A DNA stretch of 64,000 nucleotides from a virus (taxonomy: Duplodnaviria; Caudoviricetes). This document shows, piece after piece, positions 5,738 to 61,655 of the stretch. Position numbers and translations under genes: made by a program. Each line of letters opens with the position of its first letter. Positions within the stretch are counted from its first letter, which is position 1. The notes beneath the pieces were generated by a model. The model was given only the letters and a program-made list of their open reading frames with translations, made no database searches and was not told the origin of the DNA. The stretch lies in IMG/VR virus record IMGVR_UViG_3300031998_000005; one strand, given 5' to 3'.

Positions 5738-6787
5738 TTAATACATATCGTTTTCGGAGAACTCGTTTACATCGGCTTCCATAGTATTGTAATTTACATC
5801 TATGTCCACCCAACTGCGGTCGCAATACTCACGGAATTTCTCGTAGGACACTTCCCTACGAGTAGCACCCTTATATGCGAAACCATAACGATAATAGTAT
5901 TTCATACCTGTGCCCTCAGTGCCTTCTACCACTTTGAGCATATCTTCTTTGTCCTTGACATTCTTGTTGTTCTTGGAACTATAGAACGAATAGGAATATA
6001 TCTTGGACTCAAAGTCTTTAATTTTTGCATAAGCCTTTGTAATGTCGGCAATATGCTCGTCCACATACGAGTAGTAAGACTTGTCAGCGGGCCAATCCCA
6101 TCTTATGTGACCATTTTCACTTTGGGTATTCGGAGCATCGGGATTATTTAACGTGACAAATGCAAAGTCACCATCTTTAGATATAGCCAACAGATAATAC
6201 TTTCGCTTTAACGGCTTAACGTATGCCCATTGCCAATCGCTTCCAGATTCCCAAGAAACATTACCAAGGTCAGTTTTATCTACTGCGGAATACAGATAGT
6301 TCAAGGCATCTACACAGACTTCGTAATTTTTCTTGGAAGATGATATAATGTCCTTTATAATTTTAGGAACACGGGAATCAAGTTCCGGGGGTGGCGGTAG
6401 CAGTTTCTCGCCATCGGGGGTCAATGTAAACACATTAGACCTTCCCTGTTTCTCTACGAGCATATAGCCATTTGCTACAAGTTCTTTCAATATCTTTCCC
6501 GTAATTTTAATAGGTGTCCCGATACTATCACTGATTTCTCTTGTATCGGGCTTGCTCCAACTTTTGCCTATACTCAACTTATGACAGGCGGTTATAGCAT
6601 CCATATACTTTTTATCGGAAACATTTAATTTCGGTTCATCTTTAAGCAACTCGTCAGCCTTGTCTGCCTGTTTCTGTGGAGAACCCGCAGCAACAATTTC
6701 ATCCAATTCTGCGTCAAGTGCGTCCATATAAGCGTCAGCCTCGTCCAAACGAGATTCGTGAACTTTGATTTTGAGATTGTTAGACAT
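5738..6787 (-). CDS. putative internal head (cargo) protein with a winged-helix-like segment
   Basis: Leader MSNNLKIKVHE; wHTH-like TREISDSIGTPIKITGKILKELVANGYMLVEKQGRSNVFTLTPDG. Confidence 0.6.
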   Translation of the reverse strand: MSNNLKIKVHESRLDEADAYMDALDAELDEIVAAGSPQKQADKADELLKDEPKLNVSDKKYMDAITACHKLSIGKSWSKPDTREISDSIGTPIKITGKILKELVANGYMLVEKQGRSNVFTLTPDGEKLLPPPPELDSRVPKIIKDIISSSKKNYEVCVDALNYLYSAVDKTDLGNVSWESGSDWQWAYVKPLKRKYYLLAISKDGDFAFVTLNNPDAPNTQSENGHIRWDWPADKSYYSYVDEHIADITKAYAKIKDFESKIYSYSFYSSKNNKNVKDKEDMLKVVEGTEGTGMKYYYRYGFAYKGATRREVSYEKFREYCDRSWVDIDVNYNTMEADVNEFSENDMY

Positions 6788-6807
6788 AGTTTAATCGTTC
6801 CTTTGGT

Positions 6808-7482
6808 TTAGGTGTAAGCCGTAATAACATCTTCGCCTTCCGCAGATTTCACACGTTCAACGGAACGAGTAGAACGGAGAGCGTCCAAGCACATCAGCAA
6901 AAAATCTTCACGAGAGCCTATCATCGTTTCAGCGTCTTCGGCAGTCAAGGGAATTTCATCGGGAGTAGCCCTGTATGTCGGGTTCTTGGGAAAGAATGTG
7001 TCCTTGAACTTTAACTTGGGAAACTCACGTGCAAAGGCATTAAGTTGGGCGTTATTGATGGTGTGACCCTGCAAGAACTTGCGGTCATCCGCATCTAGGA
7101 GGTAGGACTTTTCGTTCTTCTTGGAGCGAGATTCCTGCTTGTCGGATGCAGCAGGCGTGAGATTAAGCGTCTTCATAATCTTGGAGGCAATCACTTTAGG
7201 ATTCCATCCCTTTGACCGCAGGCTATATACGTTGTCCAAGCCGAACTCTAGCATCCGCTGGAAACATTCTTCCACGTCATCGGAAAGATTGCAGTCATAT
7301 GAAAGAGCGAACAGCATTTCACGTATTACGCCATTAGCGATAGCGGGTATAGTCTTCCCTGCAAACACGGGGTTGGTCCGTTCTAGTTTCTGCAAAGCCT
7401 GTTTGCCTACGGATGTGACCCCGATGAACGCCCTACCGCTCTCGGCATCTTCGTGGAGTTTGATTTTGAGATTGTTAGACAT
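6808..7482 (-). CDS. putative internal head (cargo) protein
   Basis: Start moved to MSNNLKIKLHE; internal QESRSKKNE linker. Confidence 0.6.
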   Translation of the reverse strand: MSNNLKIKLHEDAESGRAFIGVTSVGKQALQKLERTNPVFAGKTIPAIANGVIREMLFALSYDCNLSDDVEECFQRMLEFGLDNVYSLRSKGWNPKVIASKIMKTLNLTPAASDKQESRSKKNEKSYLLDADDRKFLQGHTINNAQLNAFAREFPKLKFKDTFFPKNPTYRATPDEIPLTAEDAETMIGSREDFLLMCLDALRSTRSVERVKSAEGEDVITAYT

Positions 7483-7509
7483 AGGTCGGTTGTTCTTTTG
7501 GTTCAAGTT

Positions 7510-47667: not shown

Positions 47668-49137
47668 TTAAAAGATTACGAGATAGTTCCCCTTTTCGTG
47701 CTTGTAGGCTTGTAGGTCGCCATCGTCAATAGCAGCCTCAATACATTCTTCCTTGCTCTTGGACTCGTCCTTGAACTTATCGTCAAGGTATTCGTCATAC
47801 ACCTCGTCAGCATCGCACCAAGCGGTGTATTGGAACAGGTTGTCAAAGAACCCGCAAGCGTCTTCAATTTCGCCCATTTCGGAGTAGTATTCCCACAGGG
47901 CATCCCAATAATCTTCGTTGTCATCAAGGTAGGCTGCGGACGCACACAGACGCATAAACATATTATAGTCTATGCCCATCATAATCTTGCCACCGACACC
48001 CTCGGATTTCTTACGGGATTCGTTCTGTCCGTGTTCTTCACGCCAATCATCCACAAGCGTAAAGCCCAAACGCAAAAGTTCATCATCTTCGGAAAGCGTA
48101 TCACGAATATCCGTGCCATACACCCCCATAAGATAATCTATCAAATCACCGCAATCTTCATCAGCAACGCACCTGTCCATCAGTTCTGCGAACTTGGGTT
48201 TCTTCCAATGGTTCTTATGAACATCTGCGTAAATCTTTTTTGCTTCGGGCAAAGTAAGATTATTGATAACTTCCTCGGATTTCTTATTTTCAGCAGTGTT
48301 TTTCATAGCACCTTTCTCCCTACAATACTTGCAAAGACCACCATAGCGGTCATAATCATACTCGGTCATAACCGCACCACAAGAGTCGCAGCGTTCCATA
48401 CTCTCTTTCTTGCCGTCCTTGCAGGATTCGGGTTTCTTGGATTCGCTCAACTCGCCACCCAAGACCTTTGCCAATTCTTCGGCGGCTTCCTTGTTAGGCA
48501 GATGAACGTAGAATATGTTTTCGTAATAGTAGTCGGCTCGTTCGTCACCGCCTTCTATCTTGATAGTAAATTCGGGGTCATCCTTTGCCTGGTCTTCATC
48601 AAAGACAATATCATCGCCCTCACCCTCATAGGTATAATACTTGGAGAGAACATCCACCACATCTTCAAGCACATACTCGGCATCGGCATACCCTATAAGT
48701 TCTTCAAAACCATCATAGGTTTCAATTTGAGTAGAACCCCTTTCGTTCTTCTTGGATTCGGACTTACCCGCCTGTTTCAAGCACTTGTCAATAAGCGGGA
48801 AGGGGTCAAAGTCACCAACGTGTCCGTCAGCCTCCCCTAGAACATCGCAATCAGCCGTGTCATATTGACACGTAAGCCAAGAGTGTCCGTTTTCCAAATC
48901 AGTGACAAGAGTCAGCATAAATTCAGTGTCGGGGGCCATTCCCTCGACATTCTTAATGCTGCAATGCCACTCGGCATATCCCTCGGAACCACCATCATTC
49001 CAAGCGTCAATCACATCGCCCTTGTCGCCAATCACAGACTGCACACAAGAACGAAATTCGGATTCAAGGTTCTGCCCATAGGCATTTCCGTATTCTTCCT
49101 GCCCATAGTCTCGTGCAAAATTTTTAATAGCGTTCAT
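47668..49137 (-). CDS. putative cargo polyprotein (about 5 modules)
   Basis: Linkers KSESKKNE, SESKKPES...KKES, ENKKSE, NESRKKSE; one CDSC...CKYC module. Confidence 0.6.
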   Translation of the reverse strand: MNAIKNFARDYGQEEYGNAYGQNLESEFRSCVQSVIGDKGDVIDAWNDGGSEGYAEWHCSIKNVEGMAPDTEFMLTLVTDLENGHSWLTCQYDTADCDVLGEADGHVGDFDPFPLIDKCLKQAGKSESKKNERGSTQIETYDGFEELIGYADAEYVLEDVVDVLSKYYTYEGEGDDIVFDEDQAKDDPEFTIKIEGGDERADYYYENIFYVHLPNKEAAEELAKVLGGELSESKKPESCKDGKKESMERCDSCGAVMTEYDYDRYGGLCKYCREKGAMKNTAENKKSEEVINNLTLPEAKKIYADVHKNHWKKPKFAELMDRCVADEDCGDLIDYLMGVYGTDIRDTLSEDDELLRLGFTLVDDWREEHGQNESRKKSEGVGGKIMMGIDYNMFMRLCASAAYLDDNEDYWDALWEYYSEMGEIEDACGFFDNLFQYTAWCDADEVYDEYLDDKFKDESKSKEECIEAAIDDGDLQAYKHEKGNYLVIF

Positions 49138-50304: not shown

Positions 50305-53300
50305 TTACACAAAGTAGAACAGGTTGGAACTACGGGCAGTAATCACATACTTTTTGCCCTCGTTATCACGGAGCAGGGCACCGTTCATTCCGTAAGTTCC
50401 ACGGCTCACACCGATGGTTTCAATGCCCTTCTTGCGGAGTGCCTTGGCTTCTTCATCGGAAATGGTCGTGATGTCTTCGGCTTGACCAAAACGAGCCATA
50501 TCTTTCAGTTCCTTCTGCTTCAAGGTAAGGCTCTCGGACTTCTTGGATTCATTTCTAGGGTCATACAAAATACTTGCACGATTAAGACTAGAAATAGGCA
50601 AACTAAATTCCTTACCTGTATCTACGGACTGACCCACAAATGTGCGAGGTTTTAGTTCACGAATATACTGCTTTACCCCATCAAGACTAATCATCATACC
50701 TACAACGAATTTAGTCTTGCCGTGCTTAAAATAGTCACCATCGCTATAACAATCCTTACAGAAAGCCCGATTACCCTCTCCCCAAATAGGGTCATCTGTG
50801 GGATTGCCACAGATAGAACAGATTACAGTTGCTTTCTCGGACTTCTTGGCTTCTTCCTTGCATTCGGGCAGATAGTCGCCTTGGAAAGTCTTGGTAGTAG
50901 CATAATACCACTTGCCGTCCTTATCGCCAAAGTAAGTCTGTCCAACAAGATTGCCGTTAATATCCATAGCATAGCCCGCAGTGTGGAGCCACTGCTTATT
51001 ACGAATATCGTTGAATTGTGCAGGCGTAGTAATCTCAACTGCGTCCAACGTCTTCATCTTGTTAATAAGGTCGGCACGGCTACGATACATACGATTACCC
51101 AACTTCTTCGGGGGCAAACCTTCGGTCTGCTTGCTTTCGTCATTAGCCTTGATGTCCTTGATTACAGACGGTCCATACTTTTGCAAGTAGGCGTGATAAT
51201 CGTCCATCGTCACGATTTCTTCGTAGGCACGACTATCCTTGTCAATAACATTAGTCACGGCTGTAGAAGCCCAACGCTTTAACTTTTCGGGCAGTCTGTC
51301 TTCAAACCAATCGTAGGCGACTTGCCACATAAAGTCAGTGTCTTCCTTGTCAATAGCGTCATCCTTGCCGTAGCCATAATACTTTTTCTTGGCTTCGGTC
51401 TGCTTGCTTTCGTTAGCAGGGTGTTCCGCAATCAACTTTTTAAGGTCGGCAGTAAGGTCATCCCACAGGTCTGTCAGTTTGTCTGCGGTGTAAGCCTTAT
51501 CCCACTCACGGATAACGCCAGGACCGATACCATCTTCATCAAAATCAAGAATATACGAAGCATTATCCGTAGTGCCATCATCGCAAATACCAAGAGCCAC
51601 AAGGACACCTGTGCCATCGGGCAACCACGTATAACATTCAACGTAATCGCTACTACCATTATCGCTATCCAAAGCCTCCGTATCATCAAGACCCAAATCA
51701 GCAAGAGTATTGCACAGGTCGCTGTATGCTTCGGAACCTTCTATTTCGGGGTCGCAATAGAAATAGTTTTTAAGTGTGTCGTGTCCGTATTGGTTCTTGG
51801 CTTCGGACGGCTTACCATCTGCGAAAACCTTGCGGTCAAGATAGAAACCCGCATCGCTAGGGTCATCTGCAAAAGAAGCGGAGTCGTTAGCCATTATCCA
51901 ATCGTTCAAAAGCCCCGCAGCCTTACTCACGCTACGTTCTTCATCGTAGTAAGTCGCCAACATATTGACGAAATGATTACCTTCTTTATCAGTAACAACC
52001 TTGCCACGCTTGGCAAGCCACTTGCTAAAATTCTTGATGTAGCGTTTACGCAATAACGCCATCACGTCCTTTTCAAACTTATCCGCTTCGGGGTCGGCAT
52101 CGTAGTTCACGAAATCGCCAACCTTGAACGTAGCGTCCGCTTCGTTCTTCTTGGTCTTATCGTCCTTACAATCCTTGCCCTTACAGCCCTTGTCATCGTC
52201 ATTACCCTCGGACTTACCGCCTTCGGAGTAAATGTCAAAATGCGGACTGCCGTTCACGCCATCCATAATAGCAACGTAGTCACCATCATCACTAGAACCT
52301 GTCAGTTCGCCATTGGCGAGTTTCTTGACAAGTTTTACGGCTTTATCGCCACCCTTATGGTCAGTAGTCAGCACTATAAGCATTTTAGGTTCACGACAAA
52401 GACCAAGCGGGATTTCTTCGCCATCAATAGACACATAGTCCTGGTCAAAGCAAGAGTCTACAAAGTCATTCAGCCTTTGCAAGTATTCGTCCATAGCATC
52501 GGGGTCTTCATCCCAATTCTCGCCATACTCGTCAATAATATCCTGCAACCTGTCTGCGGGGAGGTCAAGTTGCTCACAGGCTTCATCGTGGGTCATAACC
52601 TCGGCACCACGCCAAATATCTTCGTAGGCTTCGGACTTATCGCCCTTGGCGTAGTAGTCCATCTTGTTATCAAAGGCTGCGTATCGTGCTTTCTTGCGAT
52701 AGTCGGCAGTTGTCTGCTTGTCGCTAGACGAAGCCCAATAGATGTCAAACGAGTCGCCCACAATGTCGCCATTCGGCTTTTCCTGTTCGCCTGCCATAAC
52801 AATCACTTGCACAACGCCATCATCATCCTTGTAGGAATCAGCAAGTTCTTTCGCAGCATTGATAGCGTCATCTTCGTCATAGAAAGTTTTAGCCGCCTGC
52901 ATATCGTCCAAGCCTTCCTCATCGCCATCGGCATCAATGCGAGTAAGGTCCAGGGTGAAGATGTCCTTGTTGCCCTCGGCTTCGGACTTCTTGCTTTCAT
53001 CCTTTGCGTTAAGACCAAATGTTGAAGATATGCCCAAATCGTCATCAACGCAAAGGTCAAACCACTTCTTGCCAAAGGCTTTAAGGGCATCACGGTCATT
53101 GCCGTAAACATATACGGCTTTACCACCTGGAGGCAGTCGGGGGTCTTCACCCAAGTTGCGGGCGTATTCTGCACCCTTCGCAGCGTCTTCGTTAGACGTG
53201 AACACGATGACGAAGTAATCGGAGCCTTCGGCTTTATTAGACTCGGATTTACCACCAAGGACAGCATAAATCTTACTAACAAGTTCATCATCAAAATCAG

Positions 53301-54102
53301 CCCAATTAGTGCTTTCTCCCGTTTCGTCTTGAAACTCCACGGTGCCATCGCCCCAAACATTGACTTGTCCATAAGTGTGTCCGTCGTATTCAATCGGGTC
53401 AATCATAACTGCATCGGACGAGTCCCATTCAACTTCAATGCCGTCCTTATCACGATAGCAAGAGTTTTCGTCATCCCAAGTCCAACCCGCAGCCTTGGCA
53501 GCGTAGTGGTCCATATTATACTTGGCATAATCGTCAATAGACAGACCCTCGGACTTTTTGGATTCGTTAATAATAATACCCATAGCCTTAATATCGGGGT
53601 CATTCGCCATTTCTCTATGCAAATCAAACAAAGGCTTATACTTGTCTAACAGTTCTTTAGTAAACACGGAACCCATCGTAGAATACCCTGTATCGCCAAG
53701 CATAATCTCACCAAACTTGCCAAGAGAGTTTGAGCGTATTCGCAACTTACCACCAAGTTCTTTTGCTCTCTTACGATAAGCGTCCAACGTGGCTTCGGAC
53801 TTTTTGGATTCGTTAGACATAGACCAGAACCCGAAGTCCGCTCCATCGCCTTCGCTTGCACCAAAGTAGCAACCGTCGGGAGCGATTTCATTGAGCAAGT
53901 CAGTGAGTTCATCCACGACCCATCCCATAGTTTCATCGTCAAGGTTCTTCCAATCTTCAACTTCGGGATTTTCCTTGATATATTTGTCATACTTATCCTT
54001 GCCGTAGGTCTTCAAGACACCAAGGAATTTCGGGATAAGGTCATCGGATTTGAGAGTTCCACTAGACACGGAACGGTCACGCAAGTCTTCAATGTTTGCC
54101 AT
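50305..54102 (-). CDS. 1265-aa putative cargo polyprotein with about 12 ESKKSE-type linkers
   Basis: Unrelated domains of roughly 70-140 aa separated by NESKKSE, DESKKSE, ESKQTE, KSE or KKNE. Confidence 0.65.
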   Translation of the reverse strand: MANIEDLRDRSVSSGTLKSDDLIPKFLGVLKTYGKDKYDKYIKENPEVEDWKNLDDETMGWVVDELTDLLNEIAPDGCYFGASEGDGADFGFWSMSNESKKSEATLDAYRKRAKELGGKLRIRSNSLGKFGEIMLGDTGYSTMGSVFTKELLDKYKPLFDLHREMANDPDIKAMGIIINESKKSEGLSIDDYAKYNMDHYAAKAAGWTWDDENSCYRDKDGIEVEWDSSDAVMIDPIEYDGHTYGQVNVWGDGTVEFQDETGESTNWADFDDELVSKIYAVLGGKSESNKAEGSDYFVIVFTSNEDAAKGAEYARNLGEDPRLPPGGKAVYVYGNDRDALKAFGKKWFDLCVDDDLGISSTFGLNAKDESKKSEAEGNKDIFTLDLTRIDADGDEEGLDDMQAAKTFYDEDDAINAAKELADSYKDDDGVVQVIVMAGEQEKPNGDIVGDSFDIYWASSSDKQTTADYRKKARYAAFDNKMDYYAKGDKSEAYEDIWRGAEVMTHDEACEQLDLPADRLQDIIDEYGENWDEDPDAMDEYLQRLNDFVDSCFDQDYVSIDGEEIPLGLCREPKMLIVLTTDHKGGDKAVKLVKKLANGELTGSSDDGDYVAIMDGVNGSPHFDIYSEGGKSEGNDDDKGCKGKDCKDDKTKKNEADATFKVGDFVNYDADPEADKFEKDVMALLRKRYIKNFSKWLAKRGKVVTDKEGNHFVNMLATYYDEERSVSKAAGLLNDWIMANDSASFADDPSDAGFYLDRKVFADGKPSEAKNQYGHDTLKNYFYCDPEIEGSEAYSDLCNTLADLGLDDTEALDSDNGSSDYVECYTWLPDGTGVLVALGICDDGTTDNASYILDFDEDGIGPGVIREWDKAYTADKLTDLWDDLTADLKKLIAEHPANESKQTEAKKKYYGYGKDDAIDKEDTDFMWQVAYDWFEDRLPEKLKRWASTAVTNVIDKDSRAYEEIVTMDDYHAYLQKYGPSVIKDIKANDESKQTEGLPPKKLGNRMYRSRADLINKMKTLDAVEITTPAQFNDIRNKQWLHTAGYAMDINGNLVGQTYFGDKDGKWYYATTKTFQGDYLPECKEEAKKSEKATVICSICGNPTDDPIWGEGNRAFCKDCYSDGDYFKHGKTKFVVGMMISLDGVKQYIRELKPRTFVGQSVDTGKEFSLPISSLNRASILYDPRNESKKSESLTLKQKELKDMARFGQAEDITTISDEEAKALRKKGIETIGVSRGTYGMNGALLRDNEGKKYVITARSSNLFYFV

Positions 54103-54628: not shown

Positions 54629-56275
54629 TTAGCCGTTGCTTCCGCTACCGCTACCACCATTCGGGGTGGAGGTAAGGAACACATTGACATCCGCAGCGGG
54701 GTCGGCATCCTTGGTGATGACGATACGCTGAACGAACTCGGCAACCACAGGTTCAATCGCCTTCCAAGAAGCGATAGCACGCTGCTGTTGGAACGGGTTT
54801 TCGGCAACCTGCATAGTGTCGGTGAGGAACACCGGCATATAGGTAGCACAGACCACAGGTGCTTCAAACGGAGAGTTATCACTGCTGTAAGCACAGATAA
54901 CTTCGTTCGGAGCAACGATGGCGTTGGAACGGATAACCGTGATGCCTTCGTTTTCAAGAGTGCCATACACGTGCGGGCCAACGAGGTTGGTCTGCGGTGC
55001 AAGACGGAAACCAGGCAGAGAAGCGATATACTGACAAGCGACATAGCCCGCCACAATCTTGTTGGCGTGACCCTTACCCGCACGGCTACCGATGGCGGCA
55101 GATGCAGCCTGGATAGTGTAAAGGAAGGACTGACGATGTTCAAATTCGCTGATACCAGGAGTCTTGTTGAGATTCCAAGTAATCGGCTTCCACTTGTTAG
55201 CACACTTGACGTATGCGGCAAGAATCTTCTCGCTTTCAGCCATCGCCATATGACCCGTAAGGTCAGCGAGAACTTCATCACTTGCAGCCTTGCCGAAACG
55301 CTTGTTGAACTGGAAGGACTTGAACGTGCCCATCATTTCCTTAAGACCGATGATTTCAGCAGAAACCACCTTGGAGTCAAGGGAGTATTCAATAGCAGGA
55401 ACGTCCGGTGCCTTTTCAAAGTCCACATCATAAGTCACGCCACCCTGGTAGCCACTCGGAATAGTGAGAACGAGGTCACCACCATCCTGTGCAGCAGTCA
55501 CAGCAACCTTGCCGTAGAAAGTCGGCAACTGACCAGGACCGCCACAGACACCAACGATGTCTTCAACCTTGCCATCCTTGTCCACAAGACGCACGTTAAT
55601 CGGCATATTCCAACGGAGATTGCCGACACCATACTTGATGGTAGCCTTGCCGTCTGCAGCGATGACAAACTGACGTTCGGACATATAGCCCGTCGGAGAA
55701 GCCTGCCAACCCTTGAGAGCGTTGAACGTGATAGCGTCAAAGTTCTTGGCTGCGAGAGTGGCAGCGTCCAAATCGCCTTCGCCACTATCAGCAGGGCGAC
55801 CACGAGTGTCCAACCACTTCTTCCAAGCACCCGCAAAGGTCTTGTCGCCTTCAAACTTGCCGTCAGCGTCCATCCAGCGGTCTTCGGGGAGAGTCGGCAG
55901 ACCATTCTGTGCGGTCAGCGGATAGCCGTGGGTAAAGGTCTTCTTAAAGTAAATCAGACCCTGGGATTCATCAAGCGTCTGCACACTAGCCAACTGCGGA
56001 GCGATGGAGAGTGCGTAAGTGGCACTGATAAGGTCAAGAGCCACACGGGGGAGAACGCCAAGGCTAGAAGCCGAGGAGTTTTCGTTCACGTAGGATTCGT
56101 AACGCTTATAGTTGTCCATCTGCTGACCCAAGTTGTAGCGGGCGGTAGCAGAAAGAGTGCCCTTAAAGGACGGGGATTTAGCAAGTGCTTCAAACTGCTT
56201 GCTATAACGAGCATCGTAGGATTCTACGAGGCGGTTGAATTTCTGGTTAGACATTTCTTCAACGGAAGTCTTCAT
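54629..56275 (-). CDS. major capsid protein (T4 gp23-like)
   Basis: 548 aa; IAPQLASVQTLDESQGLIYF, GKGHANKIVAG, VYGTL, VCATYMPV...ENPFQQQRAIASW motifs of the gp23 family; follows the scaffold gene. Confidence 0.88.
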   Translation of the reverse strand: MKTSVEEMSNQKFNRLVESYDARYSKQFEALAKSPSFKGTLSATARYNLGQQMDNYKRYESYVNENSSASSLGVLPRVALDLISATYALSIAPQLASVQTLDESQGLIYFKKTFTHGYPLTAQNGLPTLPEDRWMDADGKFEGDKTFAGAWKKWLDTRGRPADSGEGDLDAATLAAKNFDAITFNALKGWQASPTGYMSERQFVIAADGKATIKYGVGNLRWNMPINVRLVDKDGKVEDIVGVCGGPGQLPTFYGKVAVTAAQDGGDLVLTIPSGYQGGVTYDVDFEKAPDVPAIEYSLDSKVVSAEIIGLKEMMGTFKSFQFNKRFGKAASDEVLADLTGHMAMAESEKILAAYVKCANKWKPITWNLNKTPGISEFEHRQSFLYTIQAASAAIGSRAGKGHANKIVAGYVACQYIASLPGFRLAPQTNLVGPHVYGTLENEGITVIRSNAIVAPNEVICAYSSDNSPFEAPVVCATYMPVFLTDTMQVAENPFQQQRAIASWKAIEPVVAEFVQRIVITKDADPAADVNVFLTSTPNGGSGSGSNG

Positions 56276-57200: not shown

Positions 57201-58607
57201 TTAATCCTCTTCGGACCAAATTTTACGAGCGTATTCAGTTGCTTCCGCAGAACCAAAAGGAGAGCCATCCAAAGGACTACCACTCAACACGCCATCCACC
57301 CATTCTGCAAATTCATCGGCAGTTCCAGAATAACCACCAAAGCCATCCAATTCTCGCATAATGGCATACTTACCAACGATTTCGGCGGCATCAGCATCGT
57401 TAATCACAAAGTCATCGTTAGTATGCGACAAGATTTCATCACATACTGTATCTAATGCGGTTTCTGCGTTAGATACAACAAAGTGCGAAAGGCTACTCTC
57501 GTTCTTCTTGGAAACACTCTCTTTCTTCTTCTGCATAGAACAGATGTTGGACTTGCTTTCAAAACTACCCCAACCCGTTGCAGGAGTCAGTCCACTAGGA
57601 ACATCAAAGCCCTTTTCCTTAACAATCTTAATAAGTTCGGGCATATCTTGGGGGCATTCTGCCATCGCCAACCGCAGGGTATTATTAACCTGGGCTTGAT
57701 TACGAGGATTCCAATTTTTGAACATCGGGTGCATTTCTTGTAGTTTGGCAAGGCTTTCCTTCTTCTTCTGCATAGAACAGGTGTGCTTCTTGGCTTCCTT
57801 CTTCTTGGATTCATCCACATAAACAGCATTATACGGACCCATTTCCTTACCCGTAGCACCACGATAAATCATAGACAAGTCATCACGGAAACCAAATCCA
57901 GGATGCTTAAAGCCACTACCGTCTTCAGCCGTTGCACGATGACGACCGTTCTTCCAAGAATAGTTCATAATGAACTTACCGTTAGAAGTCACATCCACGG
58001 AGTCATTATCCTTCATCGTAATCTTTATCCCCATTGTGGGATATGCCTTACTGTAATAGTCCTCGTAGTCCTTCCAAAACTGCGGATTACGCCAACAAGA
58101 CATCTTACCAAAATCGGGATAGTTCTGGTGAATGTCATACAACATAAACATCTTTTCGTTTTTCTTGGCTTCCTTCTTCTTGGACTCCATCAAATCCAAA
58201 GCAGTAGTCCCTTCCTCGTTCGGCTCGCCATACTTCTTCCAAATGGCTTGGGCTTCATCGTTATACCACTTGACATCAAAATTGTCATCGGTATAAACAA
58301 CCTTGCCAACCGCCATATCGGTGTCCCAAACTTCGCCCGACTTTTCATCATAGGGCATATAGAAGTCGGAGTAGTCCATCACCATCAGATTGCGATGCTT
58401 ATAGCCAATCTTGGAACAAAGGGTGTAGCCGTCCTGCTGATACAGGTCTTCTTCTTCATCGTAGCCCTCGCCCCAACCCATAACGAAACACAACTCGGTC
58501 CCGTCATCAGTTGTTTCAAGAGTCTTCCACCACACCACCGAACCCGATGTAGTAAGGGTCTTGATAGCGGTGTTAAAGTCCTTTCCTGTAATCTTCTTCA
58601 GTGCCAT
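57201..58607 (-). CDS. putative cargo polyprotein (about 4 modules)
   Basis: Linkers MESKKKEAKKNE, DESKKKEAKKHTCSMQKKKES, FESKSNICSMQKKKESVSKKNE. Confidence 0.6.
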   Translation of the reverse strand: MALKKITGKDFNTAIKTLTTSGSVVWWKTLETTDDGTELCFVMGWGEGYDEEEDLYQQDGYTLCSKIGYKHRNLMVMDYSDFYMPYDEKSGEVWDTDMAVGKVVYTDDNFDVKWYNDEAQAIWKKYGEPNEEGTTALDLMESKKKEAKKNEKMFMLYDIHQNYPDFGKMSCWRNPQFWKDYEDYYSKAYPTMGIKITMKDNDSVDVTSNGKFIMNYSWKNGRHRATAEDGSGFKHPGFGFRDDLSMIYRGATGKEMGPYNAVYVDESKKKEAKKHTCSMQKKKESLAKLQEMHPMFKNWNPRNQAQVNNTLRLAMAECPQDMPELIKIVKEKGFDVPSGLTPATGWGSFESKSNICSMQKKKESVSKKNESSLSHFVVSNAETALDTVCDEILSHTNDDFVINDADAAEIVGKYAIMRELDGFGGYSGTADEFAEWVDGVLSGSPLDGSPFGSAEATEYARKIWSEED

Positions 58608-59342: not shown

Positions 59343-60323
59343 TTATTTTTCAGTGAACTTGGACAGGTCGGCAGAACAAATCTCGTAAGTGCCCAAGTTG
59401 TAGTGGACTTTATCGCCCGAAGGCTTGACAATGCCCAACTCGGCAAGTTTCTGCAACAGCCTGCCGTCCATACTAGAACTTGCAAAAAATTCATTAGTGT
59501 CTAACGAATACCCAGGCAAGCACACAGAAACATCCGTATAAATCTCGCCATCGTCACACTCGGCAATCAAGGCAATACCATTCGTCATAGCGTATTGTTC
59601 CAAGCGGACCGTGAGATTATTTTCTTCCCCATAGGCTTTATACGTGAAATACTCCGTCCGCTTGCCGATAGGCAACTTACTCTTGCGAGCCTCGGCTACG
59701 CCTTCTTCAACCTTGTATTTGTTATACATTTCAATGGTCCACTGCTCGGCTTCTTCAACCGATGTGGTTTCCTTGATTTCACTACCATTAAAGTTTTCTG
59801 CAACATTGAACGTGAAAACACTTGCACTCAAACACACTTCCGCATCGGGAGAATACCAAGCGTCTACGACACCTGGAATGTCCGCAAGGTCGTTAATGTC
59901 GGACAACGAGCCAAACAATTCCCAATCCTTGCCGTTGCTATCCGCAGCAATCTGCTGCAAGGCATCACGGATAGATTCAACATCCACAAAAGCCACAAGT
60001 GCAGGAGCGGACGGCAAAACCGCCTTCTTGTATTCCTCCTGCATAACCTTTTCAACTTCTTCCCTGCTCGGACGGTCCTTAAAGGCAACCATAAGGTAAT
60101 TATCCTTTACGGTAGCCCTATCCACGTCAAGGGATATGTTTTCAATATCCCAAGCCACATCGGGGTCAAAATCCTCGGTGCCCTTGAATACCGCAAGTGC
60201 GTGTGCGGTATAACAAGACGGCAAGAAATCCCCAATTTCGTTCTTCAAGGACTGGGGAAGAAACAGGCTTTCGGCTTCCTGTTTCTTGCTCTCGTGCAAA
60301 CGGATAGACAATTTCTTGGACAT
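59343..60323 (-). CDS. putative cargo protein; C-terminal module resembles DUF4313
   Basis: Start moved to MSKKLSIRLHESKKQE; YAMTNGIALIAECDDGEIYTDVSVCLP...GIVKPSG (DUF match recalled from memory, unverified). Confidence 0.55.
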   Translation of the reverse strand: MSKKLSIRLHESKKQEAESLFLPQSLKNEIGDFLPSCYTAHALAVFKGTEDFDPDVAWDIENISLDVDRATVKDNYLMVAFKDRPSREEVEKVMQEEYKKAVLPSAPALVAFVDVESIRDALQQIAADSNGKDWELFGSLSDINDLADIPGVVDAWYSPDAEVCLSASVFTFNVAENFNGSEIKETTSVEEAEQWTIEMYNKYKVEEGVAEARKSKLPIGKRTEYFTYKAYGEENNLTVRLEQYAMTNGIALIAECDDGEIYTDVSVCLPGYSLDTNEFFASSSMDGRLLQKLAELGIVKPSGDKVHYNLGTYEICSADLSKFTEK

Positions 60324-60338
60324 TGTGATACACTCCAA

Positions 60339-60614
60339 TTACTTATATTTTTCCAACTGCTGAAAGACATAACTAAACGCATCGTTAATGCGTTCCTGCT
60401 TTCGGGCGAGATTTTCCGCAATTTCAGTAGCAGTGCCATACGCAGAATCGGCAGCACCATCTTGAATGTCTATAATACTCCCCCAAAGGGATTCTATGGG
60501 AGAGCGACTACCGATGATAGCAGAAATGTCTTTAAGTTCATCCTGCAAATTTTCAAACTCGCCCTGCAAGGACTCGTTGCTTTCGTGCAAACGGATAGAC
60601 AACTTTCTAGGCAT
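60339..60614 (-). CDS. putative cargo or core protein
   Basis: Leader MPRKLSIRLHESNES; directly after the protease gene. Confidence 0.6.
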   Translation of the reverse strand: MPRKLSIRLHESNESLQGEFENLQDELKDISAIIGSRSPIESLWGSIIDIQDGAADSAYGTATEIAENLARKQERINDAFSYVFQQLEKYK

Positions 60615-60617
60615 ACC

Positions 60618-61655
60618 TTAACCTCCAAGGATGTAAGAAATCAGGCTGCCATCATTGGCTTCGTCCTTCTTGATAGCCTTGGCTTCCAAGACCTTGAACG
60701 TCTGCGGTGCAGGCTGTTCACGCTCAATGCTTTCGTAAGTAGCACCCGCCTTGCGACGCTCCTTAACGTAATCTTCATTAAGCCCGTTCTTGTTGGCGAA
60801 TTTCAACTCACGGATAGTTTCTTCGGACATCTTGATTTCTTCCTGCAAGTCTTCCACGAACTTGACGATAGACTGCTTGATGTCCTCGGTCACCTCGGTA
60901 AAGTCTTCAAACTTATACGTGTCGTTAGAGCCGTCATCGCAGTTGGACATTTCACAGCCGTTCTTGTCAAGGCTTTCAACGATGTAGGTGCTTCCGTCAA
61001 GTTCAACGGGTGCCCCAAGTTCGTTAGCCAAGGAAAGCAGGCTTTCAGCAACACGTTCGTTCACGGATTCTTCAAGGGCTTCCTTCTTCTTGGATTCCGA
61101 AATAACCTTGGGCTGTGCGTCAAGGAAACCAGGGTCTTGAACAAAGTCAAAGCGTTCAAGTTTGTAAGTCTTGGGGTCAAGAATGTCGTTGCCATCTTCG
61201 TCCTTGCCTTCGTAGTCGCCATCGGCACGGGAACTGACATACATCGTAGTTCCTGCACGGAGAATGGTGTAAAGGGTCTTACCCATATCCGTATTGTAGA
61301 TGACCGATTCAGCAATGCCCGTCTTCCAATCAATGTTGCGGGTAATATGGGAGAACTTGCCCTCGGCAATATCTTCGTCAGTGATTTCGGCTTCGTGTCC
61401 GATACGACCGAACATCTGTCCGTTCTTGAGTTTGCGTTGCACATCTTCGTCTTGACCCGCAACTTCCCAAAGTTCTTCGGTGTAAAGACGATGATTACGG
61501 CTTACCTTGCCAGGGCAGAAATGCTGACCCTTGACAATGGCGAGAATAGTGCCGCCGCTCTTGGCAACCTCGGATTGAGCGGACTCGTCCACACGGGCAA
61601 TATCGTCCACGAACTCGCACTTAAACGGGATATAATCTTCTGCAATTTTCTGCAT
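60618..61655 (-). CDS. prohead core protease (T4 gp21-like)
   Basis: SRNHRLY, GRIGH, FSH, TDMGKTL, YVSSRADG, FDFVQDPGF motifs of the gp21 family. Confidence 0.88.
   Translation of the reverse strand: MQKIAEDYIPFKCEFVDDIARVDESAQSEVAKSGGTILAIVKGQHFCPGKVSRNHRLYTEELWEVAGQDEDVQRKLKNGQMFGRIGHEAEITDEDIAEGKFSHITRNIDWKTGIAESVIYNTDMGKTLYTILRAGTTMYVSSRADGDYEGKDEDGNDILDPKTYKLERFDFVQDPGFLDAQPKVISESKKKEALEESVNERVAESLLSLANELGAPVELDGSTYIVESLDKNGCEMSNCDDGSNDTYKFEDFTEVTEDIKQSIVKFVEDLQEEIKMSEETIRELKFANKNGLNEDYVKERRKAGATYESIEREQPAPQTFKVLEAKAIKKDEANDGSLISYILGG

What the first reader, a model, noticed from the sequence alone, without database searches (positions are those of the whole stretch)
51120..53815. Linkers and tags are exact DNA repeats that could shuffle cargo modules
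Seen: exact 21-nt pairs cttcggtctgcttgctttcgt (51120-51140, 51393-51413) and tcggactttttggattcgtta (53549-53569, 53795-53815) each bracket exactly one module. A 26-nt repeat covers the leaders at 6764-6789 and 7459-7484, and a 20-nt repeat covers those at 60292-60311 and 60583-60602. Identity extends to synonymous positions. Inference: short-homology recombination at the linkers adds, deletes or swaps modules in frame, giving an array of effectors that can evolve quickly.
Basis: partly seen in the sequence, partly recalled or inferred. Interest (0 to 1): 0.7.

Follow-up and report, generated by a model that had tools for sequence, protein, structure and literature searches.

The report
Phage cargo chains reshuffled at repeated joints
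A 216-kb uncultured phage strings small protein modules together with a short repeated joint, and more than 120 relatives carry the same modules in different orders with every break at that joint, so the joints act as in-frame swap points for what is probably capsid-delivered cargo.

Summary
The two 21-nt pairs encode the joint (N/D)ESK(K/Q)(S/T)E inside a 1265-aa minus-strand ORF (50305-54102) of 13 unrelated modules. Each pair brackets exactly one module (M02, M10).

The recombination reading holds in its outcome:
- 129 related polyproteins show 124 different module orders drawn from 172 module families.
- Homology starts and stops exactly at the joints, in protein and in DNA.
- I counted 65 distinct in-frame insertions or deletions between near-identical flanks; 50 carry a direct repeat of 5 or more residues at their ends.
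- M10 itself is present or absent: X-ESKQTE-M10-ESKQTE-M11 in some proteins, X-ESKQTE-M11 in others.

Two cautions:
- Strong codon-context bias explains most of the synonymous identity. The excess of exact pairs of 20 nt or more is about 15-fold under a genome-wide model but only 3.5-fold (P 0.04) under a conservative one.
- Whether the DNA identity drives the exchange, or selection merely keeps junctions at joints, is not settled. No DNA could be fetched for the closest variants.

This scan had already described the cargo chains in this genome. The test of DNA repeats and recombination is new here.

The parts
50305..54102 (-). 1265-aa polyprotein of 13 modules (M01-M13) separated by joints. 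It has no N-terminal leader.
   Evidence: ORF; module bounds; no Pfam family; no paralogous modules in its own genome.
53795..53815 (-). 21-nt exact repeat, copy 1: the NESKKSE joint between M01 and M02.
53549..53569 (-). 21-nt exact repeat, copy 2: the NESKKSE joint between M02 and M03. This pair alone uses AAA for the first Lys.
53548..53793 (-). Module M02 (82 aa) with its trailing joint. It is absent from both complete relatives and present in only 1 of 120 related proteins, at 98% identity between 74-87% flanks.
51393..51413 (-). 21-nt exact repeat, copy 1: the ESKQTE joint between M09 and M10.
51120..51140 (-). 21-nt exact repeat, copy 2: the ESKQTE joint between M10 and M11.
51121..51393 (-). 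Module M10 (91 aa with its joint). It is a presence/absence polymorphism among close relatives, and the empty site keeps one ESKQTE.
52981..52998 (-). ESKKSE joint between M04 and M05. Relative to L052, the stretch M02-M04 is an insertion bounded by this joint and the M01/M02 joint.
50836..50853 (-). EAKKSE joint between M11 and M12. Relatives carry at least 3 alternative modules after this same joint.
50533..50550 (-). ESKKSE joint between M12 and M13.
50308..50532 (-). M13, the C-terminal module shared by every related polyprotein (blastp map). After segmentation its family has 49 different left neighbours.
47668..49137 (-). Second polyprotein (489 aa) with ESKKNE, ESKKPE and ESRKKSE joints. 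In relatives its counterpart carries homologues of M01 and M12.
6764..6789 (-). 26-nt leader repeat (MSNNLKIK) at the start of the 349-aa gene 5738-6787.
7459..7484 (-). 26-nt leader repeat at the start of the 224-aa gene 6808-7482. The two gene bodies are unrelated.
60292..60311 (-). 20-nt leader repeat (LSIRLHE) in the 326-aa gene 59343-60323.
60583..60602 (-). 20-nt leader repeat in the 91-aa gene 60339-60614.
60618..61655 (-). Head maturation protease (345 aa). An ESKKKE joint at residues 187-192 sits at the end of the catalytic domain.
   Evidence: PHROG 207 E 1.6e-21; Pfam S77 E 2.5e-4, below cut-off, residues 41-189; joint position.
54629..56275 (-). T4 gp23-type major capsid protein, immediately upstream of the polyprotein.
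   Evidence: PF07068 E 9.8e-10, PHROG 138
57201..58607 (-). 468-aa protein with two ESKKKEAKK joints that form a 23-nt exact repeat (57787/58162). One also matches the protease joint over 21 nt (57792/61077).

Best explanation
The window belongs to a 216-kb uncultured phage with a T4-type capsid protein and head protease. Its late region encodes chains of small unrelated modules joined by one short peptide, (E/D)-S-K-(K/Q)-x-E. That peptide also ends many N-terminal leaders (M-S-K-M-K-I-K-V-H-E-S...) and follows the protease's own catalytic domain. It is therefore most likely the head protease's cutting site, and the chains are probably loaded into the capsid and cut apart there (inferred).

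Because the peptide is fixed and codon choice in that context is narrow, every joint is also a 12-23-nt stretch of near-identical DNA in the same reading frame. Exchange between two joints in register, within one genome or between co-infecting relatives, removes, inserts or replaces whole modules without breaking the frame or the cutting site.

Shown here: modules are gained, lost, replaced and moved between genes, and the junctions lie on the joints. Inferred: the phage's own RecA/UvsX-type recombination uses the joint identity as the crossover point. Recombination between the two exact 21-nt copies would excise M02 or M10 with one joint copy.
For: - Joint motif: 19 copies in the genome against 0.3 in shuffled proteins, all in genes beside the capsid gene or in one other cluster.
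- Virion context: protease and capsid protein identified.
- No tandem duplication: the modules have no paralogues in their own genome.
- Complete relatives: G001 and G002 lack M02-M04 and M06-M09, and carry M01 or M12 in a different gene.
- DNA breakpoints: similarity begins and ends at the joint on both sides of M10 (vs L002), and for M11 and M13 (vs L004, L005, L002).
- Module map of 120 related proteins: modules 95-100% identical to the window occur in different combinations, and alignments run from the first to the last residue of a module.
- M10 indel: P0002 has X-ESKQTE-M10-ESKQTE-M11; P0005, P0007 and P0009 have X-ESKQTE-M11. M11 follows ESKQTE with M10 upstream in 6 proteins and without it in 8.
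- Breakpoint enrichment: 39% of internal alignment starts lie within 3 residues of a strict joint, against 3.3% of random positions.
- Indel census: 65 distinct indels of 66-482 aa between flanks at least 88% identical. 50 have a direct repeat of 5 or more residues at their ends. 51 have a joint at the empty site, against 6% of random windows.
- Recent exchange in DNA: M11 in L052 is 93.6% identical in nucleotides while its flanks are 73-79%, and the patch ends at joints.
- Scale: 124 module orders in 129 proteins, from 172 module families.
- Leader and joint are interchangeable: the same module follows a leader in one genome and an internal joint in another, in three cases.
- Exact joint pairs exceed codon-model expectation.
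- Recombinase: a RecA-family gene is present in the genome.
Against: - No cut has been measured, and no recombination event has been observed directly.
The clean M10 indel is therefore seen only in protein.
- Codon-context bias alone yields about 1.4 exact pairs of 20 nt or more per genome under the conservative model. The excess is weak in this genome (P 0.04) and absent in G002 (P 0.33).
- Adjacent joints are more alike than random pairs only in this genome (P 0.008). The effect is not significant in G001 or G002.
- 21 nt is short for RecA-type exchange.
- Selection for intact domains and cutting sites would place surviving junctions at joints whatever the mechanism.
- Joint variants stay with their neighbouring module (ESKQTE with M11), so joints are not freely homogenised.
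Confidence: 0.6

Rival explanations
1. Selection filter only. Breaks and joins occur at random, by illegitimate recombination or replication slippage. Only products whose junction falls at a joint survive, because they keep the domains whole and the cutting site intact. The DNA identity is a passive by-product of a fixed peptide and narrow codon choice.
For: Context bias is strong: TCC makes up 68-74% of Ser codons before Glu, and TCT/TCA about 0%. The conservative model already predicts 1.4 exact pairs of 20 nt or more. There are composite joints that look like imprecise scars, such as DESKRKDSKKSEA, GKSESKKSE and ECKESEAKKSES. Fifteen of 65 indels have an overlap of less than 5 residues.
Against: 50 of 65 indels carry the joint as a direct repeat, with one copy at the empty site. 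That is the pattern expected from exchange between repeats. Joints keep a canonical length across 129 proteins. Exact pairs exceed both codon models in two of three genomes. The phage has a RecA-family recombinase, and T4-type phages recombine on short homology (PMC2839356, citing Singer 1982).
Confidence: 0.3
2. A dedicated enzyme, such as a site-specific recombinase or nuclease, recognises the joint DNA and moves module cassettes, in the manner of an integron or shufflon.
For: The diversity is very high: 124 orders in 129 proteins. The joint DNA is highly uniform in G001, with 24 pairs of 18 nt or more.
Against: The joint DNA has no inverted repeat or other site-like structure on inspection. 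Joint variants differ by several bases yet still mark junctions. I did not search for a recombinase gene next to the locus.
Confidence: 0.05
3. Assembly artefact. Metagenome assemblers joined co-occurring strains at the shared 21-nt words, creating false module orders.
For: All sequences are metagenome assemblies, and the repeats are as long as the smallest k-mers some assemblers use.
Against: The repeats are far shorter than reads and shorter than the final k-mers. Identical orders were recovered from different samples: L006 equals L008 over 2.5 kb, L052 equals L053, and several protein clusters were seen on 2-8 contigs. Every junction is in frame with a canonical joint.
Confidence: 0.03
4. 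The paired joints are leftovers of tandem duplication of a module plus its joint, followed by divergence of the module bodies.
For: Adjacent joints are more alike than random pairs in this genome (P 0.008). One relative (P0006) does carry M03 twice.
Against: No module of the window's polyprotein matches any other module in its own genome at E 1e-3. The bodies of adjacent leader genes are likewise unrelated.
Confidence: 0.02

Closest known systems
PeSL cassettes of T4-type phages (Arbiol et al. 2010, PMC2839356; Comeau et al. 2014, PMC4122927)
   Same: Short conserved repeats flank variable cassettes. Closely related phages differ by a filled site (repeat-cassette-repeat) against an empty site (one repeat). 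The proposed mechanism is excision and reinsertion by the phage's own homologous recombination on short homology.
   Different: PeSLs are about 100-bp intergenic promoter-plus-stem-loop elements that move whole genes. Here the repeats are 12-23 nt, lie inside coding sequence, encode a peptide with its own presumed function, and move protein domains in frame. Mini-circles were shown for PeSLs and not here.
Conserved in-frame motifs of T-even tail-fibre adhesins: gp38 glycine-rich motifs and gp37 His boxes (Trojet et al. 2011, PMC3157838, citing Tetart 1996 and 1998)
   Same: Short conserved coding motifs separate variable segments, and genetic exchanges that make chimeras occur in or near those motifs.
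   Different: The adhesin motifs form the structural core of a single domain with fixed synteny. Here the joints separate independent, unrelated modules whose number and order vary freely.
T4 internal proteins (IPI, IPII, IPIII, Alt) with a capsid targeting sequence cut by gp21 (PMC3012670, PMC9026906)
   Same: A T4-type capsid protein and protease. A short conserved N-terminal leader ending in hydrophobic-x-Glu sits on otherwise unrelated, fast-changing proteins. T-even internal proteins are described as a highly diverse set sharing only the targeting sequence.
   Different: T4 cargo proteins are single genes. Here many modules are chained in one ORF, with the presumed cutting site reused as an internal joint. 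The 1265-aa chain lacks the leader and instead keeps a universal C-terminal module.
Polyvalent proteins of phages and conjugative elements (Iyer et al. 2017, PMC5512222)
   Same: Up to about 15 unrelated domains in one polypeptide, encoded beside virion genes, thought to be delivered with the DNA and processed into separate units.
   Different: Those proteins contain catalogued domains and usually their own metallopeptidase for processing. None of those domains was detected here. Processing would be by the head protease at a repeated joint. That paper does not discuss linkers or shuffling.
Polymorphic toxin loci (CdiA-CT and Rhs tips with orphan cassettes); cited from general knowledge, not checked here
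   Same: A conserved short coding motif before a variable module provides the homology for in-frame replacement by stored or foreign cassettes.
   Different: In those loci only the C-terminal tip is replaced, in bacterial toxins. Here every internal position of a phage chain is exchangeable.

Membership tests
T4-type capsid-targeted cargo (CTS plus gp21 processing) | gp23-family major capsid protein | tested here: met
   PF07068 E 9.8e-10, 38.8 bits against a cut-off of 24.4
T4-type capsid-targeted cargo (CTS plus gp21 processing) | gp21-family (Peptidase S77) prohead protease | tested here: inconclusive
   PHROG 207 head maturation protease, E 1.6e-21. Pfam S77 scores 21 bits, below the cut-off of 27, and the whole-genome S77 search found nothing.
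T4-type capsid-targeted cargo (CTS plus gp21 processing) | Short shared N-terminal leader ending in hydrophobic-x-Glu on unrelated proteins | tested here: met
   15 genes begin with M-x-x-(L/M)-K-I-(K/R)-(V/L)-x-E. Their bodies show no mutual similarity.
T4-type capsid-targeted cargo (CTS plus gp21 processing) | Proteins found inside capsids and cut at the motif | not testable with these tools
   Needs virion mass spectrometry.
PeSL-type modular shuffling | Conserved repeats flanking variable cassettes, with filled and empty alleles in close relatives | tested here: met
   65 indels with flanks at least 88% identical; joint at the empty site in 51; M10 case.
PeSL-type modular shuffling | The repeat is an intergenic early promoter plus stem-loop | tested here: not met
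   The repeats are in-frame coding joints and leaders. Sequence upstream of the leaders is not conserved beyond a ribosome-binding site.
PeSL-type modular shuffling | Excised mini-circles | not testable with these tools
   Needs inverse PCR or read data.
Polyvalent proteins (Iyer et al. 2017) | Many unrelated domains in one polypeptide beside virion genes | tested here: met
   13 modules with no mutual similarity, directly downstream of the capsid gene.
Polyvalent proteins (Iyer et al. 2017) | Catalogued conflict domains, typically with a zincin-like peptidase | tested here: not met
   0 Pfam families at E 0.01 in the 1265-aa protein, and one short PHROG hit of unknown function.
In-frame recombination motifs of T-even adhesins | Conserved coding motif between variable segments, with chimera junctions in or near it | tested here: met
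In-frame recombination motifs of T-even adhesins | The protein is a tail-fibre adhesin with fixed motif synteny | tested here: not met
   The locus lies in the head gene cluster, and the number of modules varies from 2 to 12.

The most novel reading that the evidence does not exclude
The joint has two roles: it is a protease site in the protein and an in-frame recombination site in the DNA. That would make this phage lineage a natural domain-shuffling system. Single modules would be excised with one joint copy, perhaps as mini-circles, and reinserted at any other joint or leader in any cargo gene. Each phage would thereby carry a different mix of injected proteins drawn from a shared pool of more than 170 module families.
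Probability: 0.3. Interest if true: 0.8.

Novelty: new variant of a known kind. Interest (0 to 1): 0.62.

Why it matters
Phage cargo delivered with the DNA, such as the T4 internal proteins, is a front line against host defences, and it changes quickly by routes that are poorly understood. This lineage shows that change at the level of protein domains. Hundreds of unrelated modules are recombined in frame at one short joint, giving almost one module order per phage sampled. If the joint DNA itself drives the exchange, this would be a simple rule for building and evolving multi-effector chains. It would also be a ready-made design for packaging and releasing chosen proteins from capsids. The 172 module families are a catalogue of candidate host-directed proteins with no known function.

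Tried and rejected
- A degenerate 45-nt pattern for the ESKQTE-M11 junction found nothing in metagenome contigs. The second metagenome scan gave only more distant relatives.
- The M13 module gave no usable hit in the protein atlas and only weak, short matches in the PDB, best E 2e-4 over 18 residues. Its role as a possible targeting or anchoring module stays unknown.
- Pfam found nothing in the polyprotein.
- The tandem-duplication origin of the paired joints is rejected, because there are no paralogous modules.
- The naive argument that 21-nt identity cannot come from codon usage is rejected. Context-specific usage makes it fairly likely.
- The adjacency effect (neighbouring joints more alike) holds only in this genome, so I do not lean on it.
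- RecT and ERF family recombinases were not found.
- No structures were predicted.
Full report
**Observation.** All four repeats exist exactly as described. The window is the reverse strand of positions 146370-210369 of a single 215,686-bp virus contig estimated to be 99% complete. Exact direct repeats of 18 nt or more number 36 pairs in the window and none in 20 shuffles.

Both 21-nt pairs lie in one minus-strand ORF, 50305-54102, of 1265 aa. Read on the coding strand, they are the peptide NESKKSE at residues 97-103 and 179-185, and ESKQTE at residues 898-903 and 989-994. The copies are 246 and 273 nt apart, so they are in frame. Each pair brackets one module, M02 or M10.

**What the ORF is.** Cutting at the strict motif and at degenerate forms (GKSE-A, KKNE-A and similar) gives 13 modules of 22-141 aa. 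No module resembles any other module in the same genome, so the paired joints are not relics of tandem duplication. Pfam finds nothing in the protein.

The motif E-S-K-(K/Q)-x-E occurs 19 times in the genome against 0.3 in shuffled proteins. It is confined to genes around the capsid gene and to one other cluster.

The surrounding genes fit a T4-type head module:
- The gene directly upstream of the polyprotein (at higher window coordinates) is a gp23-family major capsid protein.
- The 345-aa gene at 60618-61655 is a head maturation protease: PHROG 207 at E 1.6e-21, and Pfam S77 below its cut-off.
- The same ESKKKE joint sits at residues 187-192 of that protease, where the S77 match ends.

Fifteen genes begin with the leader M-S-K-M-K-I-K-V-H-E-S, and some run on into ESKKxEA. 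This fits T4-type capsid targeting with cutting after Glu (PMC3012670, PMC10052503). Neither packaging nor cutting has been measured. An earlier follow-up in this scan reached the same reading for this genome. I re-derived the protease identification and the joint position myself.

**Is the synonymous identity more than codon usage?** Only partly.
- Genome-wide, TCC is 28% of Ser codons. Before Glu it is 50%, in K-S-E contexts 68%, and in joint-bearing genes 74%.
- TCT and TCA are almost never used before Glu, and TCG almost never before Lys.
- Redrawing the codons of every joint from non-joint sites, conditioned on the next residue, gives 0.32, 0.22 and 0.08 exact pairs of 20 nt or more in the three complete genomes. 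The observed numbers are 5, 7 and 1.
- A deliberately generous model, trained only on joint-bearing genes and conditioned on both neighbours, gives 1.41, 1.54 and 0.40, with P 0.04, 0.005 and 0.33. This model is partly circular, because those genes contain degenerate joints.
- Adjacent joints are closer to each other than random pairs in this genome (P 0.008) but not in the other two.

So the exact repeats are real and available as recombination substrates. Most of their identity follows from a fixed peptide and narrow codon choice. A modest excess remains.

**Do relatives vary at the joints?** Yes, massively.

Loci from IMG/VR whose capsid proteins are 90-94% identical carry, in the same position and ending in the same 75-aa module M13, polyproteins of 651, 650 and 335 aa; a more diverged 215-kb relative (L002), which that capsid search did not return, has 669 aa. 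I fetched two complete relatives of 215 and 213 kb in full. Both lack M02-M04 and M06-M09 altogether. M01 and M12 sit in a different polyprotein gene in them.

In DNA, similarity to the window begins at the joint before M10 and ends at the joint after it, with unrelated sequence on both sides. The same holds for M11 and M13 against three loci.

A search of 5.8 billion proteins returned 125 relatives of 695-2214 aa, and none is collinear with the window. Mapping the 13 modules onto the 120 listed shows:
- M13 in all of them and M01 in 89.
- Internal modules in many combinations, with alignments running from the first to the last residue of a module.
- Identities within a single protein ranging from 55% to 100%.

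After removing two duplicates, 129 polyproteins give 796 segments, 172 module families and 124 different orders. M13 has 49 different left neighbours.

**Breakpoint statistics.**
- Among all high-identity alignments between these proteins, 39% of internal starts lie within three residues of a strict joint, against 3.3% of random positions.
- I found 65 distinct in-frame insertions or deletions of 66-482 aa between proteins whose flanks are at least 88% identical.
- In 50 of them the two flanking alignments overlap by 5-14 residues at the empty site. This means the insert is bounded by a direct peptide repeat.
- The repeat is the joint in 51 of 65, against 6% for random windows.

- M10: P0001 and P0002 read X-ESKQTE-M10-ESKQTE-M11, with M10 98% identical to the window. 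P0005, P0007 and P0009 read X-ESKQTE-M11 with the same X. M11 follows ESKQTE with M10 upstream in 6 proteins and without it in 8.
- M02: it occurs in only one other protein, at 98% identity between flanks of 74-87%. Most relatives join M01 through a single NESKKSE to another module.
- After the joint that follows M11, at least three alternative modules occur.

**Evidence for exchange between diverged lineages.** In locus L052 the M11 segment is 93.6% identical to the window in nucleotides, while M01, M05 and M13 in the same gene are 73-79% identical. The patch ends at joints. Relative to L052, the window has M02-M04 inserted between two ESKKSEA joints, and all three sequences share 12-18 identical nucleotides at the junction.

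**Leaders.** The 26-nt and 20-nt repeats are the coding leaders of adjacent genes whose bodies are unrelated. Sequence upstream of them is not conserved beyond a ribosome-binding site. The leader genes at 195-204 kb of the genome have no counterpart in either complete relative. Three modules follow a leader in one genome and an internal joint in another. Leader and joint are therefore equivalent module boundaries, and genes fuse and split there. In L006/L008 a module boundary is also a gene boundary, with a stop codon, a ribosome-binding site and a mini-leader.

**Mechanism.**
- Shown: whole modules are gained, lost, replaced and moved in frame, with junctions on the joints.
- Inferred: in-register exchange within the joint DNA by the phage's recombination system. 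A RecA-family gene is present, while RecT and ERF were not found.
- Precedent: T4-type phages are reported to recombine on patches shorter than 50 bp, and to excise cassettes between short repeats as mini-circles (PMC2839356).
- Main rival: random breakage filtered by selection for intact domains and cutting sites. Composite joints such as DESKRKDSKKSEA may be scars of imprecise events, and 15 of 65 indels have little overlap at the junction.
- Assembly chimeras are unlikely, because identical orders recur in independent samples.

**Comparison and verdict.** The closest known systems are listed below. Shuffling at conserved short sequences is known from all of them.
- PeSL cassettes of T4-type phages, which are intergenic and move whole genes.
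- The conserved in-frame motifs of T-even adhesins.
- T4 internal proteins with their shared targeting sequence.
- Polyvalent proteins.

What differs here is that the shared sequence is an in-frame joint, probably a protease site, inside chains of unrelated modules, and that the scale is nearly one order per phage. I rate it a new variant of a known kind. The causal role of the DNA identity remains open.

Noticed in passing
window 4465/5383, 5401, 18499, 25148, 26741, 30169, 33319, 35285, 44795/44814, 57046: An intergenic motif of about 20-27 nt (plus strand AAATATAACAAAATACCTAG and variants) recurs at least ten times between minus-strand genes. It is probably a phage promoter-type element and could act as a gene-level cassette boundary, like PeSLs.
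   Followed up: no
L006 15325-15327 and 15658-15700 (identical in L008): An in-frame TAA directly follows the joint ESKKSEA, and the M05 homologue continues in the same frame with no start codon nearby. A second TAA after M05 is followed by AGGAG, an ATG and a mini-leader MSDKKFNNKKSE-G. The first may be a silenced module or a read-through site; the second is a true gene boundary at a module boundary.
   Followed up: partly
G000 151072 vs G002 59638 and L006 6618; G001 47467 vs G002 68862; G000 104222 vs G002 210915: The same module follows an N-terminal IKVHE leader in one genome and an internal ESKKSE-type joint in another. Cargo genes therefore fuse and split at these boundaries.
   Followed up: yes
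window 56403, 56483, 56784: A 21-23-nt exact triple repeat (CGGGCTTCAAGACGCTTGCGGAA) lies just upstream of the capsid gene, apparently in coding sequence. It would encode a repeated peptide.
   Followed up: no
whole genomes G000, G001, G002: Ser codon choice depends strongly on context. TCT and TCA are about 0% before Glu, and TCG is 0-2% before Lys. The TCG case fits the TCGA avoidance reported earlier for this genome; the TCT/TCA avoidance before GAA is unexplained.
   Followed up: partly
P0006 (residues 376-475 and 578-677): One relative carries module M03 twice, at 92% identity to the window, separated by about 100 residues. This is an example of module duplication within a chain.
   Followed up: no
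window 50308-50532: The C-terminal module M13 is present in all 120 listed relatives at 70-100% identity, although the chain lacks the N-terminal leader. It may be the targeting or anchoring part of the chain. It has no informative match in the PDB or the protein atlas.
   Followed up: partly
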